DNA from: an uncultured Actinomycetota bacterium
GTDB lineage: Bacteria > Actinomycetota > Humimicrobiia > Humimicrobiales > Humimicrobiaceae
Direction: 5' to 3'
Assembly: GCA_964558475.1 (NCBI GenBank)
Contig: CAZLEB010000001.1
Location: forward strand, 1 to 49,878
DNA length: 49,878 nt
Part shown: positions 4,708-8,740 of the stretch, piece after piece
How positions within the stretch are numbered: position 1 is the first letter of the stretch
How the letters are laid out: the number at the start of each line of letters is the position of its first letter
Program-made: the position numbers and the translations under genes
Notes under the pieces: generated by a model
The model's input: only the letters and a program-made list of their open reading frames with translations
The model's database searches: none
What the model was told of the DNA's origin: nothing

Positions 4708-4716
4708 TGGTATAAT
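4708..4716 (+). promoter_or_regulatory. Extended -10 promoter element TGgTATAAT upstream of the phosphoesterase/cDPG operon
   Basis: TG-n-TATAAT lies about 57 nt upstream of ATG 4773. No well-spaced -35 (TTGAAA at 4692 is only 13 nt away). Confidence 0.45.
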
Positions 4717-4772
4717 TTATTAGAAGTAAAAAAACTATTTCGACTGAAAATGTATATTTGAAAGGGAAAGTG

Positions 4773-5573
4773 ATGACAGAAAATACTAAGGAAACAGTAG
4801 TAGTTCAAATTTCTGATATTCATGTTGGGGAAAAGCATTTTGTGCCCAGTCTTCTCACCAGGTGTATTGATGAAATAAATGAACTCTGTCCCGATATAGT
4901 GGTTATAACAGGAGATCTTACTGCCAATGGCTTCAGGATGGAATACGATACTTTAAAGAATTATCTCTCTCCTATAAAGTGTAAAAATCTACTGGTCCAA
5001 TTAGGAAACCATGATTCCAGGAATGTAGGATACCTGCATTTTGAAGACATTTTTGGCAGCAGATATATTTCATTTAGCGGTAGTAATGTGACCATTGTTG
5101 CAGCTGATTCAAGTGAACCTGATCTGGATAACGGACAAATTGGCAGGGAACATTATGAATGGATTAAAAATGAATTCAATAAATGTAATAATGATAATTT
5201 TAAAATCTTTGCCATGCATCACCACTTGATATCAATTCCAAATACAGGTAGGGAAAGGAATATTGTAAATGATGCCGGTGATGTTCTGGAAACCTTAGTT
5301 GATGCCGGAGTGGATATGGTGTTATGTGGACATAAACATGTACCGTATCTATGGAGAGTAGAGGACCTGCTGGTAGTTACTGCCGGGACAGTTTCTTGTC
5401 TTAGATTAAGGGGAAAAATTGAACCAAGTTATAATATTATCTATGTAAGAGAGAAAGAAATCGATATATATAGAAGGTCGCCTTTTGATAAAATAGAAAA
5501 AATTTTAGGTGTAGAAAGAATTGGGAAGAAGAGTAAACTCTGTGATAAGTTTATTAAAGAGAAAAAACAATAA
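4773..5573 (+). CDS. Calcineurin-like metallophosphoesterase (CpdA/YfcE-like)
   Basis: Motifs DIHVG, GDLTANG, GNHD, HHH and GHKH in canonical order. ATG 4773 follows AAAGGGAAAG; the listed TTG 4758 is less likely. Confidence 0.85.
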   Translation: MTENTKETVVVQISDIHVGEKHFVPSLLTRCIDEINELCPDIVVITGDLTANGFRMEYDTLKNYLSPIKCKNLLVQLGNHDSRNVGYLHFEDIFGSRYISFSGSNVTIVAADSSEPDLDNGQIGREHYEWIKNEFNKCNNDNFKIFAMHHHLISIPNTGRERNIVNDAGDVLETLVDAGVDMVLCGHKHVPYLWRVEDLLVVTAGTVSCLRLRGKIEPSYNIIYVREKEIDIYRRSPFDKIEKILGVERIGKKSKLCDKFIKEKKQ

Positions 5574-6921
5574 GGATAAGGATCTGATTGCATTAATAGA
5601 TGGAGAGCATTACCCGCAGGTAACCTATGATGCAATTGCAATGCTTAAAAAAATCTATAAAGGCAATTTTAAGGGCATTGTCTTCCTGGGTGGAACCGAG
5701 AAATTGGCGATAAACAATATCGAGGGTTTTTTCGGCGAGAAGGTTTATAGAATTAAGGATATTGATACGGATTTTAAAGCAGCACTTAAATATTTCAAAC
5801 CTGACGTTGTCTATGATTTAAGTGACGAACCTGTGGTAAATTACGTAATTAGAATGAAAATAGCTTCTTTTTGTCTTGCAAATAAATGCAGTTATATAGG
5901 TCCTGACTTTTTATTTTCTTATGAGAAAGAAAATATACACTGCAGCAAACCCACCATAGCAATTATTGGAACAGGTAAAAGAATTGGCAAAACTGCGGTT
6001 AGTTCTTTTATATCTAAAATATATACTTCTGAGGATGTTAATGTATGTATCATTGCTATGGGAAGGGGAGGACCTAAAAACCCTCAGATTATCAAGGGTA
6101 ATAAAATAAATATTACACCTGAATATCTCCTTGATATCAGTAATAAGGGGATGCATGCAAGTTCGGATTATATAGAAGATGCTCTTACAAGTAAGGTCAC
6201 TGCTGTTGGTTGCAGAAGGTGCGGCGGTGGTTTTGGAGGTAAAGTTTTTATGTCGAACATAAAGGAAGGTATAAGTGTTGCTGAAAAATTAAATCCTGAC
6301 CTAATAATAGTAGAAGGAAGCGGTGCCTCTGTTCCGGATGTAGAAGCAGATGCCACTATCTGTGTAATAGGTGCCGGCCAGAACTGGGAAAATATAATAG
6401 GCTATTTGGGAATTTATAGAATACTATCTTCGGACCTGATAATAATTACAATGTGTGAGAAGCCATTGGCAGATCGGGACAAGATAATTTTTTTAGAAAG
6501 AGAAATAAAAAAGATTAATCCGAAAGCCAGTATTATAAAAACGATTTTTAGACCGGAGCCTTTATCCGATATTAATGGTAAAAAAGTTTTTATAGCTATG
6601 ACCGCCAGTAAAATTGTTGAACCTATTATTAGAGATTACATAGAGAACAATTTTAACTGCAGGGTTATGAAGATGAGTTTTAATCTGGGAAATAGAGAAG
6701 AACTTAGAAAGGACTTAGAAAAAAGTAAGGATTATGACACAATAATGACAGAATTAAAGGCAGCTTCGGTAGATGTTGTAACAGATTATGCTTTTAAACA
6801 TAAAAAAGAAATAATATATATGAATAATATTCCTATAGTAATAGGCGGCAATAAGCTGCTAGAAAAGGAATTAAAAAATATATTCTCAAAGGAGAAAGAT
6901 CAATATGGATTCAAGAGATGA
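5521..6921 (+). CDS. cpgS: Cyclic 2,3-diphosphoglycerate synthetase-like protein
   Basis: About 460 aa. N-terminal LIDGEHYPQV, P-loop IIGTGKRIGKTAV and MGRGGP match my recollection of the archaeal cDPG synthetase family. The start is uncertain: TTG 5521 or GTG 5542, and either overlaps the upstream gene. Confidence 0.65.
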   Translation: MGRRVNSVISLLKRKNNKDKDLIALIDGEHYPQVTYDAIAMLKKIYKGNFKGIVFLGGTEKLAINNIEGFFGEKVYRIKDIDTDFKAALKYFKPDVVYDLSDEPVVNYVIRMKIASFCLANKCSYIGPDFLFSYEKENIHCSKPTIAIIGTGKRIGKTAVSSFISKIYTSEDVNVCIIAMGRGGPKNPQIIKGNKINITPEYLLDISNKGMHASSDYIEDALTSKVTAVGCRRCGGGFGGKVFMSNIKEGISVAEKLNPDLIIVEGSGASVPDVEADATICVIGAGQNWENIIGYLGIYRILSSDLIIITMCEKPLADRDKIIFLEREIKKINPKASIIKTIFRPEPLSDINGKKVFIAMTASKIVEPIIRDYIENNFNCRVMKMSFNLGNREELRKDLEKSKDYDTIMTELKAASVDVVTDYAFKHKKEIIYMNNIPIVIGGNKLLEKELKNIFSKEKDQYGFKR

Positions 6922-7861
6922 AAGTGAAGCAAACCCCAGGGTAATAGTAATCTCAGATAAAAAAGGCGGCTTGCCCTTTTCAAAAGGAATACTTGCTTCG
7001 TCTATTTCTGTAACCGGTTTGGATATTTTGACTGCCCATAAAATTGCGCTTGAAATTCAGGATTATTTTCTAAAAAATAAGATATACTCACTGTCTCTTG
7101 GTGAATTAAGGTCACTGGCGTTCAGGTTTATAAAAGATAAAGTCAGTTTGGAATACGCTGAGAGATATTTACTCTGGCAATCTGTTGGTAAACTAGAAAA
7201 ACCGGTTATAATACTTATCGGCGGATCAACCGGTGTTGGAAAATCGACTATAGCTACTATACTGGCAAATAGATTAAATATAACAAGAATAGCTTCTACC
7301 GATGCTATAAGAGAAGTTATGAGAGCTTCGGTGTCGGAGAAATTAATCAGGCCTCTTAGAGGTTCTTCTTTTAATGCATATAAGAATTTAACTCTTCCTC
7401 CTACTGGAGTAGAACCGGTTATCCTGGGTTTCAGGGAACAGGTATTGGCAGTTAATGTAGGTATAGAAGCAATAATAAAAAGAAATATTGAAGAAAAATC
7501 AGATATTGTTATAGAAGGCGCACATGTAGTGCCCGGTTATTTGGATCTTAGAGAATATTCATCCAGGGCTATAATTCAGCAGATAGTTATATCGGTGTCT
7601 GATAAAGATATTCATAAAGAGCATTTCACCAAGAGGACTTTTGAAACTCAGGGTTCAAGGCCCATGGAAAGATATATAAAGCATCTGGACAAAATCATGA
7701 TGATTCAGGATTATATAGAGAAATTGGCAAAAGAGAAAAAAGTTAAAATCATTGAAAACTATAATCTTGATAATGTAGTAAATGAAATATTGGAGTTAAT
7801 ATTTCAAAGGGTAAAAAGCGAATTTAGTAAAGTAGGATCTGAATATAAGAAAATAAGCTAA
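6905..7861 (+). CDS. pgk2: 2-phosphoglycerate kinase-like protein (N-terminal ATP-cone-like region + P-loop kinase)
   Basis: LPFSKGILASS...AHKIALEIQ N-terminus, then Walker A GGSTGVGKST. Overlaps the cpgS-like stop by 17 nt. AAGGAG lies upstream. Confidence 0.7.
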   Translation: MDSRDESEANPRVIVISDKKGGLPFSKGILASSISVTGLDILTAHKIALEIQDYFLKNKIYSLSLGELRSLAFRFIKDKVSLEYAERYLLWQSVGKLEKPVIILIGGSTGVGKSTIATILANRLNITRIASTDAIREVMRASVSEKLIRPLRGSSFNAYKNLTLPPTGVEPVILGFREQVLAVNVGIEAIIKRNIEEKSDIVIEGAHVVPGYLDLREYSSRAIIQQIVISVSDKDIHKEHFTKRTFETQGSRPMERYIKHLDKIMMIQDYIEKLAKEKKVKIIENYNLDNVVNEILELIFQRVKSEFSKVGSEYKKIS

Positions 7862-7864
7862 ACC

Positions 7865-8293
7865 TTATCTTAAAATATAGAATTTTTCGGAAATTTTATT
7901 ATCTCTATTTAAGTAAACCTTTACGTTATAGCTCCCGGGAGAATAAATACCATTTTTTTTGACCAAAAGGATTATAATCTTTCCTGAACCCTTTTGCTCC
8001 GGTTTTACGGTATTACTCTGGATTATTTCGTTAGAATTATCTTCAATTTTTTCCCATTCGACTTTTATTTCATCTTCAGTGGTAAGGTGCTTTACGTCTA
8101 TTATAAGATAGATATTTGAATCCCGGCTGTTAAAGTAGTCGTGGTTGTCCTGACTTAATTCGTTAAAACTGGAGTCTTTACTGGAACTTAAGTAAATATT
8201 TTCAATATCCGGTTTTTTTTGCAGGGTTGTTATTGAAACTATCGTAAGGATTAAAGTTAAGATAATTATAATTAGTATATTTCTTTTTTTCAT
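7865..8293 (-). CDS. Hypothetical membrane-anchored/secreted small protein
   Basis: N-terminal MKKRN + hydrophobic helix ILIIIILTLILTIVSI. No recognisable catalytic motifs. Convergent with the 2PGK-like gene. Confidence 0.6.
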   Translation of the reverse strand: MKKRNILIIIILTLILTIVSITTLQKKPDIENIYLSSSKDSSFNELSQDNHDYFNSRDSNIYLIIDVKHLTTEDEIKVEWEKIEDNSNEIIQSNTVKPEQKGSGKIIILLVKKNGIYSPGSYNVKVYLNRDNKISEKFYILR

Positions 8294-8440: not shown

Positions 8441-8740
8441 ATGCCTATATATAGCTATAAATGTGAAAACTGCGGAAGAATTTTTGATAAATTTCAAAAA
8501 GCTGGATGTAATGACAATATAAAATGCATTTATTGCGATTCTAATACTAATAGATTATTTTCGCCTGTGGGAATAATTTTTAAAGGATCCGGATTTTATA
8601 CTACAGATTATAAATCAAAATCGGGGAATTTTAATAATGCTGCCGGTATTTCAACAAAAAAAGAGAAAGATAATAAAAAGTCAGAAGCCAAATCTTCTGT
8701 TAAAAAGGGAACTACTACAGTACCAAATAAAAATAGCTAA
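8441..8740 (+). CDS. FmdB-family zinc-ribbon protein (CxxC...CxxC) with K/S-rich tail
   Basis: MPIYSYKCENCG...CIYCDS...FKGSGFYTTDY is the characteristic FmdB/CxxC_CxxC_SSSS pattern. Confidence 0.8.
   Translation: MPIYSYKCENCGRIFDKFQKAGCNDNIKCIYCDSNTNRLFSPVGIIFKGSGFYTTDYKSKSGNFNNAAGISTKKEKDNKKSEAKSSVKKGTTTVPNKNS

What the first reader, a model, noticed from the sequence alone, without database searches (positions are those of the whole stretch)
4708..7861. Archaeal-type cyclic 2,3-diphosphoglycerate (cDPG) pathway operon in a bacterial genome
Two overlapping genes match my recollection of the archaeal cDPG pathway enzymes. The first is cDPG synthetase (LIDGEHYP, GTGKRIGKT, MGRGGP; about 460 aa). 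The second is 2-phosphoglycerate kinase (PFSKGIL N-terminal region + GGSTGVGKST). Together these convert 2-PG to 2,3-DPG to cDPG, a thermoprotective solute best known from hyperthermophilic methanogens (Methanothermus, Methanopyrus, Methanothermobacter). Here they sit in an unmistakably bacterial context, next to murein synthesis, FtsZ/SepF/DivIVA and xseAB. This suggests lateral acquisition or an unrecognised bacterial use of cDPG or 2,3-DPG.
Basis: partly seen in the sequence, partly recalled or inferred. Interest (0 to 1): 0.6.

Follow-up and report, generated by a model that had tools for sequence, protein, structure and literature searches.

The report
Bacterial cDPG operon with partner phosphoesterase
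An uncultured soil and sediment actinobacterium carries a tightly coupled three-gene operon: the two enzymes that methanogenic archaea use to make the phosphate-rich solute cyclic 2,3-diphosphoglycerate, plus a conserved phosphoesterase that may be the unidentified enzyme that breaks this solute down.

Summary
[quoted passage not shown] It matches the Methanothermus fervidus crystal structure sequence at E=2.5e-117, and every published ligand-contacting residue I could place is conserved. Window 6905-7861 encodes a 2-phosphoglycerate kinase (2PGK; NCBIfam E=5.6e-90, slightly below the equivalog cut-off).

It is a metallophosphoesterase (MPE) with an intact active site, behind a conserved promoter.

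'Lateral acquisition' is not supported as a recent event:
- GC3 equals that of the flanking genes.
- The trio is syntenic throughout the organism's class (Humimicrobiia-like Actinomycetota) and in other actinobacterial classes.
- The cDPGS clade is not nested within the methanogen clade.

The family is large. At least 520 species genomes carry it, including many mesophilic bacteria and archaea. NCBI already names these proteins, but I found no paper describing cDPG in bacteria.

The most interesting point is the MPE. It accompanies cDPGS and 2PGK in two gene orders across several phyla and both domains, and it is the most constrained of the three genes here. All 6 homologues sampled blind sit beside cDPGS.

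Best reading: the operon makes cDPG and probably also turns it over, in a bacterium from non-thermal habitats. No biochemistry was tested. Earlier notes of this scan report the same trio in at least 51 genomes.

The parts
4708..4716 (+). Extended -10 promoter element TGGTATAAT of the operon, about 55 nt upstream of the first start codon
   Evidence: The TATAAT core is invariant and the TGnTATAAT form is present in 8 of 9 aligned upstream regions of relatives whose upstream neighbours differ. The generic two-hexamer scan did not list it, because there is no good -35 at 16-18 nt. Function is inferred, not shown.
4773..5573 (+). Metallophosphoesterase (266 aa), Rv0805/GpdQ-like fold; candidate cDPG hydrolase or 2,3-DPG phosphatase
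   Evidence: Pfam Metallophos E=4e-16, 60.4 bits against a cut-off of 21.5. All five metal-binding motifs are intact: D15xH17, G47D48, G78N79H80D81, H149-151, G186H187xH189. There is also a family-specific invariant block HHHxxPxPxxGRER. The AF2 model has pLDDT 84.6, and the best PDB folds are Rv0805 and GpdQ. The RBS GAAAGGGAAA before ATG 4773 is conserved in 19 relatives. dN/dS is 0.03-0.07. There is no TM segment.
5542..6921 (+). Cyclic 2,3-diphosphoglycerate synthetase (459 aa from GTG 5542; an alternative TTG start at 5521 would give 466 aa)
   Evidence: phmmer against PDB 8ORK gives E=2.5e-117. E53/K54, K146/R147/K150/T151, D209, E306, T354, E404 and K406 correspond to M. fervidus E45/K46, K145/R146/K149/T150, D208, E305, T353, E404 and K406, taken from PMC10690619. 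Relatives carry the precomputed Pfam domain PF27272 CpgS_N. The gene overlaps the MPE stop by 32 nt.
6905..7861 (+). 2-phosphoglycerate kinase (318 aa): N-terminal PFSKGIL domain plus P-loop kinase domain
   Evidence: NCBIfam NF003259 E=5.6e-90, 301.8 bits against a cut-off of 343; NF008994 (a second 2PGK model) E=2.5e-82. The SD AAGGAG lies 10 nt before ATG 6905. The gene overlaps the cDPGS stop by 17 nt. Orthologues are called next to cDPGS in all Actinomycetota loci. dN/dS is 0.05-0.09.

Best explanation
Window 4708-7861 is one operon of three translationally coupled genes, MPE, cDPGS and 2PGK, behind its own conserved promoter. It lies in the chromosome of an uncultured low-GC actinobacterium (Humimicrobiia-like; nearest named relative Ca. 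Hydromicrobium) that lives in soil, sediment, groundwater and wetlands. 2PGK phosphorylates 2-phosphoglycerate to 2,3-diphosphoglycerate. cDPGS then uses a second ATP to close the two phosphates into the cyclic pyrophosphate cDPG. The soluble dinuclear-metal phosphoesterase encoded first is a dedicated partner. Most likely it reopens the ring (cDPG to 2,3-DPG) or dephosphorylates 2,3-DPG, so one operon supplies both synthesis and turnover, as the ppk-ppx operon of E. coli does for polyphosphate. Because the habitat is not hot, the likely role is a phosphate, energy and carbon reserve or an anionic solute, not thermoprotection. The operon is an old, vertically inherited part of this lineage, not a recent import from methanogens. 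Shown: gene identities, active-site conservation, operon structure, synteny, co-evolution, purifying selection, composition and habitat of the DNA. Inferred: that cDPG is actually made, what the MPE's substrate is, and the physiological role. My odds are about 0.9 for the enzyme identities, 0.65 for cDPG being made in vivo, and 0.35 for the MPE being a cDPG hydrolase specifically.
For: Identity of cDPGS: E=2.5e-117 to the crystallised enzyme, with all named ligand residues conserved that I could place. Identity of 2PGK: E=5.6e-90 to the 2PGK equivalog model over its full length. Operon: overlaps of 32 and 17 nt, SD sequences, a conserved TGGTATAAT promoter. Link to glycerate-phosphate metabolism elsewhere: other bacterial cDPGS genes sit next to an ApgM-type (L085) or iPGM-type (L069) phosphoglycerate mutase. 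MPE partnership: the order MPE-cDPGS-2PGK holds in every Actinomycetota locus. The order cDPGS-2PGK-MPE holds in Eubacteriales, Aminicenantes, Bradymonadales, Thermoplasmata and Natronoplasma loci, with the same invariant GRER block. Patristic distances of the three proteins correlate (r=0.69-0.94, Mantel 0/999). The MPE has the lowest dN/dS. Vertical inheritance: GC3 equals the flanks, synteny with xseAB and mraZ is conserved in relatives, and the clade structure supports it. Habitat: the DNA is present in 23 soil, sediment, groundwater and wetland runs from about 16 studies. Background from the literature: cDPG turnover, a hydrolase activity without a named gene, and cDPG in the mesophile Methanobrevibacter smithii (PMC1224877).
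Against: No metabolite or enzyme data exist for any bacterial member. The literature states that cDPG occurs only in methanogens (PMC10690619). The 2PGK score is below NCBI's equivalog cut-off (301.8 against 343). The cDPG hydrolase described in Methanothermobacter is membrane-bound, whereas this MPE has no hydrophobic segment. None of the 40 Methanobacteriota loci has an MPE within 4 kb of cDPGS. Co-transcribing a synthetase with a hydrolase would be a futile cycle unless the hydrolase is regulated. No RNA run holding the gene was found, so expression is unproven. An amino-acid-composition estimate of growth temperature (IVYWREL 0.42, about 59 C) does not exclude thermophily, although this index is biased in AT-rich genomes.
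Confidence: 0.6

Rival explanations
1. The operon was recently acquired by lateral transfer from a cDPG-producing methanogen.
For: The biochemistry is known only from methanogens. Identity to M. fervidus cDPGS is about 45%.
Against: GC and GC3 cannot be told apart from the flanks. The trio and its neighbours (small secreted protein, FmdB zinc ribbon, xseAB, mraZ) are syntenic across relatives down to 53-60% cDPGS identity. Methanobacteriota form a clade that excludes all bacterial sequences (99*), and the window's clade is separated from them by a long branch (0.88) and by other bacterial clades. Methanogens do not have the operon arrangement.
Confidence: 0.04
2. The pathway makes cDPG, but the MPE is not a cDPG hydrolase. 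It is a 2,3-DPG phosphatase that returns carbon to glycolysis (2,3-DPG to 2-PG or 3-PG plus Pi), or it sets the 2,3-DPG level.
For: The linkage evidence is the same as for the main reading. MPE distances track 2PGK (r=0.94) more closely than cDPGS (r=0.69). Phosphomonoesterase activity is common in this superfamily; purple acid phosphatases are among the fold matches.
Against: The nearest folds are diesterases (Rv0805, GpdQ). Removing the pathway intermediate would work against the two co-translated enzymes. An earlier AI note reports a two-gene MPE-cDPGS operon without 2PGK in a Rubrobacter-type genome (not checked here).
Confidence: 0.2
3. The bacterial enzymes have a different end product or purpose. 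For example, they might supply only 2,3-DPG (cofactor of dPGM-type mutases, or a regulator), or cyclise a related bis-phosphorylated acid. In that case the MPE would trim a phosphorylated precursor to a final solute, as in the synthase-plus-phosphatase pairs of the mannosylglycerate and glucosylglycerate pathways.
For: No bacterial cDPG has ever been reported. The 2PGK is below the equivalog cut-off. The window's cDPGS clade sits on a long branch. Some relatives lie beside GT4 and MGH1-like glycoside hydrolase genes typical of glycosyl-glycerate solutes.
Against: Every residue reported to contact 2,3-DPG, Mg2+ or ADP that could be located is conserved here, and most are invariant or nearly invariant across 45 diverse family members. 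A cell that needs only catalytic 2,3-DPG has no need for a cDPGS. Linkage to phosphoglycerate mutases in other phyla points to C3 phosphoglycerates.
Confidence: 0.12
4. The MPE is an unrelated housekeeping cyclic-nucleotide phosphodiesterase (Icc/CpdA), as databases label it, and is next to the cDPG genes by chance or through shared regulation.
For: JGI names relatives 'Icc protein' or '3',5'-cyclic AMP phosphodiesterase CpdA'. The best PDB relative is the cNMP phosphodiesterase Rv0805.
Against: Scores against the CpdA and SpdA equivalog models are far below their cut-offs (36 against 225; 38 against 400). The linkage holds in two gene orders, in several phyla and both domains, and in 6 of 6 blind samples. 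The coding regions overlap by 32 nt. The MPE co-evolves with its neighbours.
Confidence: 0.05

Closest known systems
cDPG biosynthesis of Methanothermus fervidus, Methanothermobacter and Methanopyrus (2PGK plus cDPGS; PDB 8ORK/8ORU; De Rose et al. 2023, PMC10690619)
   Same: Same two enzyme families. cDPGS aligns end to end, with the Walker A GTGKRIGKT and all placeable ligand residues conserved. 2PGK has the same two-part architecture.
   Different: The host is a bacterium from non-thermal habitats. The two genes are fused into one operon, whereas cDPGS stands alone in 40 Methanobacteriota loci. A metallophosphoesterase is co-translated with them. The cDPGS sequence is about 45% identical and belongs to a separate clade.
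cDPG hydrolase activity of Methanothermobacter thermautotrophicus (Sastry 1992; van Alebeek 1994, as summarised in PMC1224877)
   Same: It catalyses the reaction proposed here for the MPE (cDPG to 2,3-DPG). It is the natural counterpart of cDPGS in a turnover cycle.
   Different: It is known only as an activity; the review read here names no gene. It is described as membrane-bound and inhibited by K+ and Pi, whereas the window's MPE is predicted to be soluble. No MPE is seen near methanogen cDPGS genes.
Class III phosphodiesterases Rv0805 (M. tuberculosis) and GpdQ (Enterobacter aerogenes)
   Same: Same fold (Foldseek E about 2e-14, TM 0.65-0.8) and the same five metal-ligand motifs.
   Different: Only about 20% identity. 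The window's MPE fails the CpdA and SpdA equivalog cut-offs. It carries its own invariant HHHxxPxPxxGRER block and further invariant arginines (R83, R213). Its genomic context is entirely different.
ppk-ppx operon of E. coli (polyphosphate kinase plus exopolyphosphatase)
   Same: This is an analogy only: a phosphoanhydride reserve whose synthesising and hydrolysing enzymes are encoded in one operon.
   Different: The protein families are unrelated, and the reserve is a polymer, not a small cyclic molecule. The analogy rests on general knowledge and was not tested here.

Membership tests
Cyclic 2,3-diphosphoglycerate synthetase (CpgS; PDB 8ORK; Pfam PF27272 CpgS_N) | Full-length similarity to the biochemically and structurally characterised M. 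fervidus enzyme | tested here: met
   E=2.5e-117, 395 bits, query residues 12-435 against chain residues 4-435. Relatives carry the precomputed PF27272 domain. The local Pfam and NCBIfam copies hold no model that hits.
Cyclic 2,3-diphosphoglycerate synthetase (CpgS; PDB 8ORK; Pfam PF27272 CpgS_N) | Walker A GxxGxGK[T/S] carrying the substrate-contacting K145/R146 and K149/T150 | tested here: met
   GTGKRIGKT at residues 143-151. K146, R147, K150 and T151 are invariant in 45 diverse members.
Cyclic 2,3-diphosphoglycerate synthetase (CpgS; PDB 8ORK; Pfam PF27272 CpgS_N) | Trans-subunit E45/K46, Mg ligand D208, and nucleotide contacts E305, T353, E404, K406 | tested here: met
   GGTEK (E53/K54), D209, MCEKP (E306), T354 and TELKAA (E404/K406) all align to the M. 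fervidus positions. The paper's 'P335' could not be placed at that number in the alignment, but the neighbouring FRP motif is conserved.
Cyclic 2,3-diphosphoglycerate synthetase (CpgS; PDB 8ORK; Pfam PF27272 CpgS_N) | ATP-dependent cyclisation of 2,3-DPG to cDPG | not testable with these tools
   This needs an enzyme assay.
2-phosphoglycerate kinase (NCBIfam NF003259 / PRK04220) | Score at or above the curated equivalog cut-off | tested here: not met
   301.8 bits against a cut-off of 343. E=5.6e-90 with coverage 5-299 of 306. The protein is clearly in the family, and this is its best model by far over the paralogous models (149.7 and 94.9 bits). It is outside NCBI's strict equivalog boundary.
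2-phosphoglycerate kinase (NCBIfam NF003259 / PRK04220) | P-loop kinase domain preceded by an ATP-cone-like N-terminal domain | tested here: inconclusive
   The P-loop GGSTGVGKST is present. ATP-cone was not detected in the window protein at E<=10. It is 'weak' or 'faint' in close orthologues and clear in longer 2PGKs of L060 and L085.
2-phosphoglycerate kinase (NCBIfam NF003259 / PRK04220) | Functional pairing with cDPGS | tested here: met
   It is adjacent to and co-evolves with cDPGS (r=0.86) in 38 loci from several phyla and both domains.
Calcineurin-like metallophosphoesterases (Pfam PF00149) | Five metal-ligand motifs DxH / GD / GNH[DE] / H / GHxH, and a score above the gathering cut-off | tested here: met
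   60.4 bits against 21.5. All motifs are present and invariant in 25-36 homologues. The fold is confirmed.
3',5'-cAMP phosphodiesterase CpdA/Icc (NF008359) and 2',3'-cNMP phosphodiesterase SpdA (NF050112) | Score at or above the equivalog cut-off | tested here: not met
   36.0 against 225 for CpdA, and 38.4 against 400 for SpdA. The database names 'Icc' and 'CpdA' for relatives are therefore not supported.
cDPG hydrolase (activity described in Methanothermobacter) | Hydrolysis of cDPG to 2,3-DPG | not testable with these tools
   No sequence is attached to the activity in the literature read, so membership can only be shown by assay.
cDPG hydrolase (activity described in Methanothermobacter) | Membrane association (van Alebeek 1994, via PMC1224877) | tested here: not met
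   The maximum Kyte-Doolittle 19-residue mean is 1.07, and there is no TM segment or signal peptide.

The most novel reading that the evidence does not exclude
cDPG is not a speciality of hot-spring methanogens. It is a widespread small-molecule phosphate and energy reserve, or anionic solute, of mesophilic and largely anaerobic Actinomycetota and several other bacterial and archaeal phyla. The GRER-type metallophosphoesterase encoded with cDPGS and 2PGK is the cDPG hydrolase whose gene has not been identified. One operon therefore forms a complete charge and discharge cycle: 2-PG to 2,3-DPG to cDPG, then back to 2,3-DPG and, through 2PGK running in reverse, to 2-PG plus ATP.
Probability: 0.3. 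Interest if true: 0.75.

Novelty: new variant of a known kind. Interest (0 to 1): 0.55.

Why it matters
Current papers describe cDPG as exclusive to (hyper)thermophilic methanogens, and it is being developed as an industrial protein and DNA stabiliser. If common soil and sediment bacteria make it, three things follow:
- Its assumed role in heat protection needs revising, towards phosphate, energy and carbon storage or charge balance.
- A large pool of mesophilic enzymes, easier to express, becomes available for producing it.
- The breakdown step, known since the 1990s only as an activity, gets a concrete candidate gene that a simple assay can test.

For genome annotation, thousands of proteins now labelled 'Icc' or 'CpdA cAMP phosphodiesterase' would need renaming.

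Tried and rejected
I therefore could not search the window's own genome for ppk/ppx or for the type of phosphoglycerate mutase. I also could not search methanogen genomes for an orthologue of the MPE.
- A 45-sequence alignment was too diverse for the search for related loci. A 12-sequence one worked.
- Only the best 80 of at least 520 genome loci were returned, so the taxonomic census is incomplete.
- The local Pfam and NCBIfam copies have no cDPGS model. Identity rests on the PDB sequences and on precomputed PF27272 labels.
- No RNA-seq run holds the cDPGS gene, so expression is untested.
- Rfam found nothing in the window except one tRNA. Alignment of the leader showed only the promoter and RBS, with no conserved structured element or obvious Pho-type repeats.
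- Literature searches found nothing for bacterial cDPG, 'cDPG hydrolase', Humimicrobiia plus cDPG, or Rubrobacter/Gaiella plus diphosphoglycerate. Matussek 1998 (PMC107676) is not held.
- The AlphaFold model is not available as coordinates in the Python box. I could not measure how far the invariant arginines lie from the metal site.
- The composition-based temperature estimate (59 C) was set aside as unreliable for a 33% GC genome.
- The last homologous-protein search was left unused. A list of the best 120 would have been filled with close actinobacterial relatives and could not answer whether methanogens carry the MPE.


Full report
**What is in the sequence**

Between 4708 and 7861 the + strand carries three ORFs in a row, with overlapping ends:
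- 4758/4773-5573
- 5521/5542-6921
- 6905-7861

The interval actually begins with a third gene, a metallophosphoesterase (MPE), which the same reader had logged as a separate finding (e1-3403691).

The wider context is bacterial. Pfam confirms XseA, MraZ, a class B PBP, a Mur ligase, FtsA, FtsZ, SepF and DivIVA downstream.

**Identity of the two pathway enzymes**

[quoted passage not shown] It also matches a second solved cDPGS (9SXB) at 1e-108.

The structure paper names the residues that hold 2,3-DPG, Mg2+ and ADP: E45 and K46 from the partner subunit, K145, R146, K149, T150, D208, E305, T353, E404 and K406 (PMC10690619). All of these align to identical residues in the window protein. Most are invariant or nearly invariant in an alignment of 45 representatives drawn from clusters at 29-56% identity to the window protein. 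The paper's 'P335' could not be placed at that number in the alignment.

*2PGK.* The third protein matches NCBIfam's 2-phosphoglycerate kinase (2PGK) equivalog NF003259 at E=5.6e-90 over nearly the whole model. At 301.8 bits it is below the curated cut-off of 343. The paralogous models, including mevalonate-3-phosphate 5-kinase, score far lower.

I therefore treat cDPGS membership as established by sequence. I treat 2PGK as a clear family member just outside the strict equivalog boundary, supported by its constant pairing with cDPGS.

**Operon anatomy**

- The MPE stop overlaps the cDPGS start by 32 nt (GTG 5542, preceded by GGGAAGAAG).
- The cDPGS stop overlaps the 2PGK start by 17 nt (AAGGAG lies 10 nt upstream of ATG 6905).
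- The MPE start at ATG 4773 follows GAAAGGGAAA. An equivalent site precedes the start in 19 relatives.
- About 55 nt further upstream is TGGTATAAT (4708-4716). This extended -10 element is conserved in 8 of 9 aligned relatives, although the rest of the leader and the upstream neighbours differ.
- No Rfam family and no conserved structured leader was found.
- All three products are predicted to be soluble.

**Who the organism is and where it lives**

The closest proteins come from MAGs labelled Actinomycetota, Ca. Humimicrobiaceae and Ca. Hydromicrobium (81% identity for cDPGS).

The exact DNA of the operon is held by 23 public runs labelled soil, sediment, freshwater sediment, groundwater or wetland metagenome, from about 16 studies. 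None is labelled as a thermal site. No RNA run holding the gene was found.

A composition-based temperature estimate gave about 59 C. This index is inflated by AT-rich codon usage, so I do not rely on it.

**Was it laterally acquired?**

- GC (0.34-0.35) and GC3 (0.28-0.29) of the three genes equal those of 26 other genes in the window (GC3 0.293+-0.023).
- In relatives down to about 53-60% cDPGS identity, the trio keeps the same order. Most of them also keep the downstream neighbours: a small secreted protein on the opposite strand and an FmdB zinc ribbon, followed in the annotated relatives by xseA, xseB and mraZ.
- The order MPE-cDPGS-2PGK also occurs in Ca. Aquicultor, Thermoleophilia, Gaiellales, Ca. 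Hakubella and others. There it sits in a different chromosomal context (thr genes ... tal, rho).
- In a maximum-likelihood tree of 83 sequences, the window lies in a 21-member actinobacterial clade (SH-aLRT 100) on a long branch. The 40 Methanobacteriota loci plus M. fervidus form one clade (99) that excludes all bacterial sequences. Other bacterial clades and a mixed bacterial/Thermoplasmata clade lie between them.

The tree is unrooted and used the quick search. It rules out a recent origin from within the sampled methanogens. It does not rule out an ancient transfer in either direction.

**Size and spread of the family**

- At least 7,997 clusters at 90% identity match the window protein.
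- There are 172 clusters at 50% identity with E<=1e-30.
- At least 520 species-representative genomes encode a relative. Among the best 80, 38 are bacterial (Actinomycetota, Bacillota, Anaerolineae, Aminicenantes, Bradymonadales) and 42 archaeal. The archaeal ones include the mesophilic gut genera Methanobrevibacter and Methanosphaera.
- Further members are labelled Cloacimonadota, Asgard archaea and Thermococcus.

NCBI already names these proteins '(cyclic) 2,3-diphosphoglycerate synthetase', so the annotation is not new.

In the searchable literature I found no paper describing the pathway or the compound in a bacterium. Current papers state that cDPG is exclusive to hyperthermophilic methanogens. 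An older review does list it in the mesophile Methanobrevibacter smithii and stresses its rapid turnover.

**The third gene**

The MPE has all five metal-ligand motifs of the calcineurin-like superfamily. It also has a block of its own, HHHxxPxPxxGRER, and further invariant arginines.

Its AlphaFold model (pLDDT 84.6) is closest to the class III phosphodiesterases Rv0805 and GpdQ, at about 20% identity. Its scores against the CpdA and SpdA equivalog models are far below their cut-offs. The 'Icc' and 'CpdA' labels given to relatives are therefore generic.

Four observations tie it to the pathway:
1. It precedes cDPGS and 2PGK in every Actinomycetota locus examined.
2. In Eubacteriales, Aminicenantes, Bradymonadales, Thermoplasmata and Natronoplasma loci the order is cDPGS-2PGK-MPE. 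There the MPE is a tandem protein whose first domain keeps the metal motifs and the GRER block.
All six are followed by cDPGS and 2PGK.
4. Patristic distances of the three proteins over 39 sequences (the window and 38 loci) correlate (r=0.69-0.94; 0 of 999 permutations as high). Within the window's clade the MPE evolves most slowly, with dN/dS 0.03-0.07 against 0.08-0.14 for cDPGS.

**Mechanism proposed**

*Supported by homology.* 2PGK converts 2-PG plus ATP to 2,3-DPG. cDPGS converts 2,3-DPG plus ATP to cDPG, ADP and Pi, through the two-step SN2 mechanism described for the M. fervidus enzyme.

*Inferred.* The MPE hydrolyses the cyclic pyrophosphate back to 2,3-DPG, or removes a phosphate from 2,3-DPG. 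Either would give a synthesis and turnover pair in one operon. Phosphoanhydride and phosphodiester hydrolysis are both usual in this superfamily (general knowledge). The invariant arginines would suit a small polyanion, but this could not be checked on coordinates.

A cDPG hydrolase activity has been described in Methanothermobacter, and no gene is named in the review I read. That activity is membrane-bound, whereas this MPE is soluble. No MPE lies near the methanogen cDPGS genes. The two enzymes need not be the same.

Because the habitat is not hot, a role as a phosphate, energy or carbon reserve or as an anionic solute is more plausible than thermoprotection. That part is speculation.

**Supporting context from other lineages**

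- One uncultured bacterium has 2PGK-cDPGS followed by an ApgM-type phosphoglycerate mutase.
- An Anaerolineae MAG has cDPGS followed by an iPGM-like protein.
- Both fit C3 phosphoglycerate chemistry.
- Some Bacillota loci differ: they have GntR-cDPGS-ABC transporter, with no 2PGK or MPE within 4 kb.

**Relation to earlier notes of this scan**

A word search returned 53 notes in at least 51 genomes. The eight shown describe cDPG genes linked to a metallophosphoesterase, and their follow-ups reach the same reading. These are AI notes and are not independent evidence. They do show that this window is one more instance of a recurrent feature, not a singular find.

**Verdict**

The enzymes are right, and a bacterial use is plausible and undocumented in the literature. 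Recent lateral acquisition and thermoprotection are not supported.
- The feature is a variant of a known pathway: new hosts, an operon form, and an added conserved phosphoesterase.
- The finding offers a clear and cheap experimental test.
This prevented the genome-wide co-occurrence test that would most sharpen the MPE hypothesis.

Noticed in passing
L075 6700-7356, L080 4093-4749, L082 6689-7390, L083 6629-7336, L084 6371-7033 (first domains; the ORFs continue for about 560 aa): In the loci with the order cDPGS-2PGK-MPE, the phosphoesterase is a tandem of two MPE domains. The first keeps all metal ligands and the GRER block. The second has lost the ligands (HCGG for GD, AGRD for GNHD, GTSSHP for GHxH) but keeps a related PIPHSREKGLLEDSGD loop. 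It may be a substrate-binding or regulatory pseudo-enzyme domain.
   Followed up: partly
L085 2682-6609; L069 3965-7020: Other bacterial cDPGS genes are followed by phosphoglycerate mutases. L085 has 2PGK (with a clear ATP-cone), then cDPGS, then ApgM (PhosphMutase E=4e-55). In L069 an iPGM-like protein follows; its Pfam hits place the iPGM_N domain (411-540) after the Metalloenzyme hit (107-304), an unusual order.
   Followed up: partly
L027 4-6044; L031 3035-9213: In some Bacillota-labelled MAGs, cDPGS sits between a GntR/UTRA regulator and a three-component ABC importer (SBP, permease, ATPase), with no 2PGK or MPE within 4 kb. This suggests a different use of the enzyme, such as uptake or catabolism of a related phosphorylated acid.
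   Followed up: no
L086 1540-3771; L091 1-3830: Upstream of the MPE-cDPGS-2PGK trio in some lineages lie a GDE/MGH1-like glycoside hydrolase, and in L091 also a GT4 glycosyltransferase and an ApgM-like protein. These genes are typical of glycosyl-glycerate solute metabolism. A TAL/FSA aldolase gene follows the trio in five of the six MPE-seeded loci, and rho follows in all six.
   Followed up: no
window 7865-8293 (-) and 8441-8740 (+): A 142-aa protein with an N-terminal hydrophobic anchor and no family match, and an FmdB-type zinc-ribbon protein, keep their position directly downstream of the operon across most of the Humimicrobiia-like clade (30-75% and 48-69% identity).
   Followed up: partly
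L030-L081 (Methanobacteriaceae loci): cDPGS is present as a solitary gene in many mesophilic Methanobrevibacter, Methanosphaera and Methanobacterium genomes, including gut and rumen MAGs. This does not fit the 'hyperthermophile-only' description in recent papers.
   Followed up: no
PDB 9SXB chain A against window 5542-6921: A third solved cDPGS (436 aa; organism not given by the tool) lacks the residue equivalent to E305: it reads ITLAD--MV where the window has ITMCEKPLA. This nucleotide contact is therefore not universal in the family.
   Followed up: no
window, 29 ORFs pooled: The IVYWREL fraction is 0.42, which gives about 59 C by the Zeldovich formula. This does not match the soil, wetland and groundwater labels of the runs that hold this DNA. 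AT-rich bias is a likely cause, but the discrepancy is unresolved.
   Followed up: no
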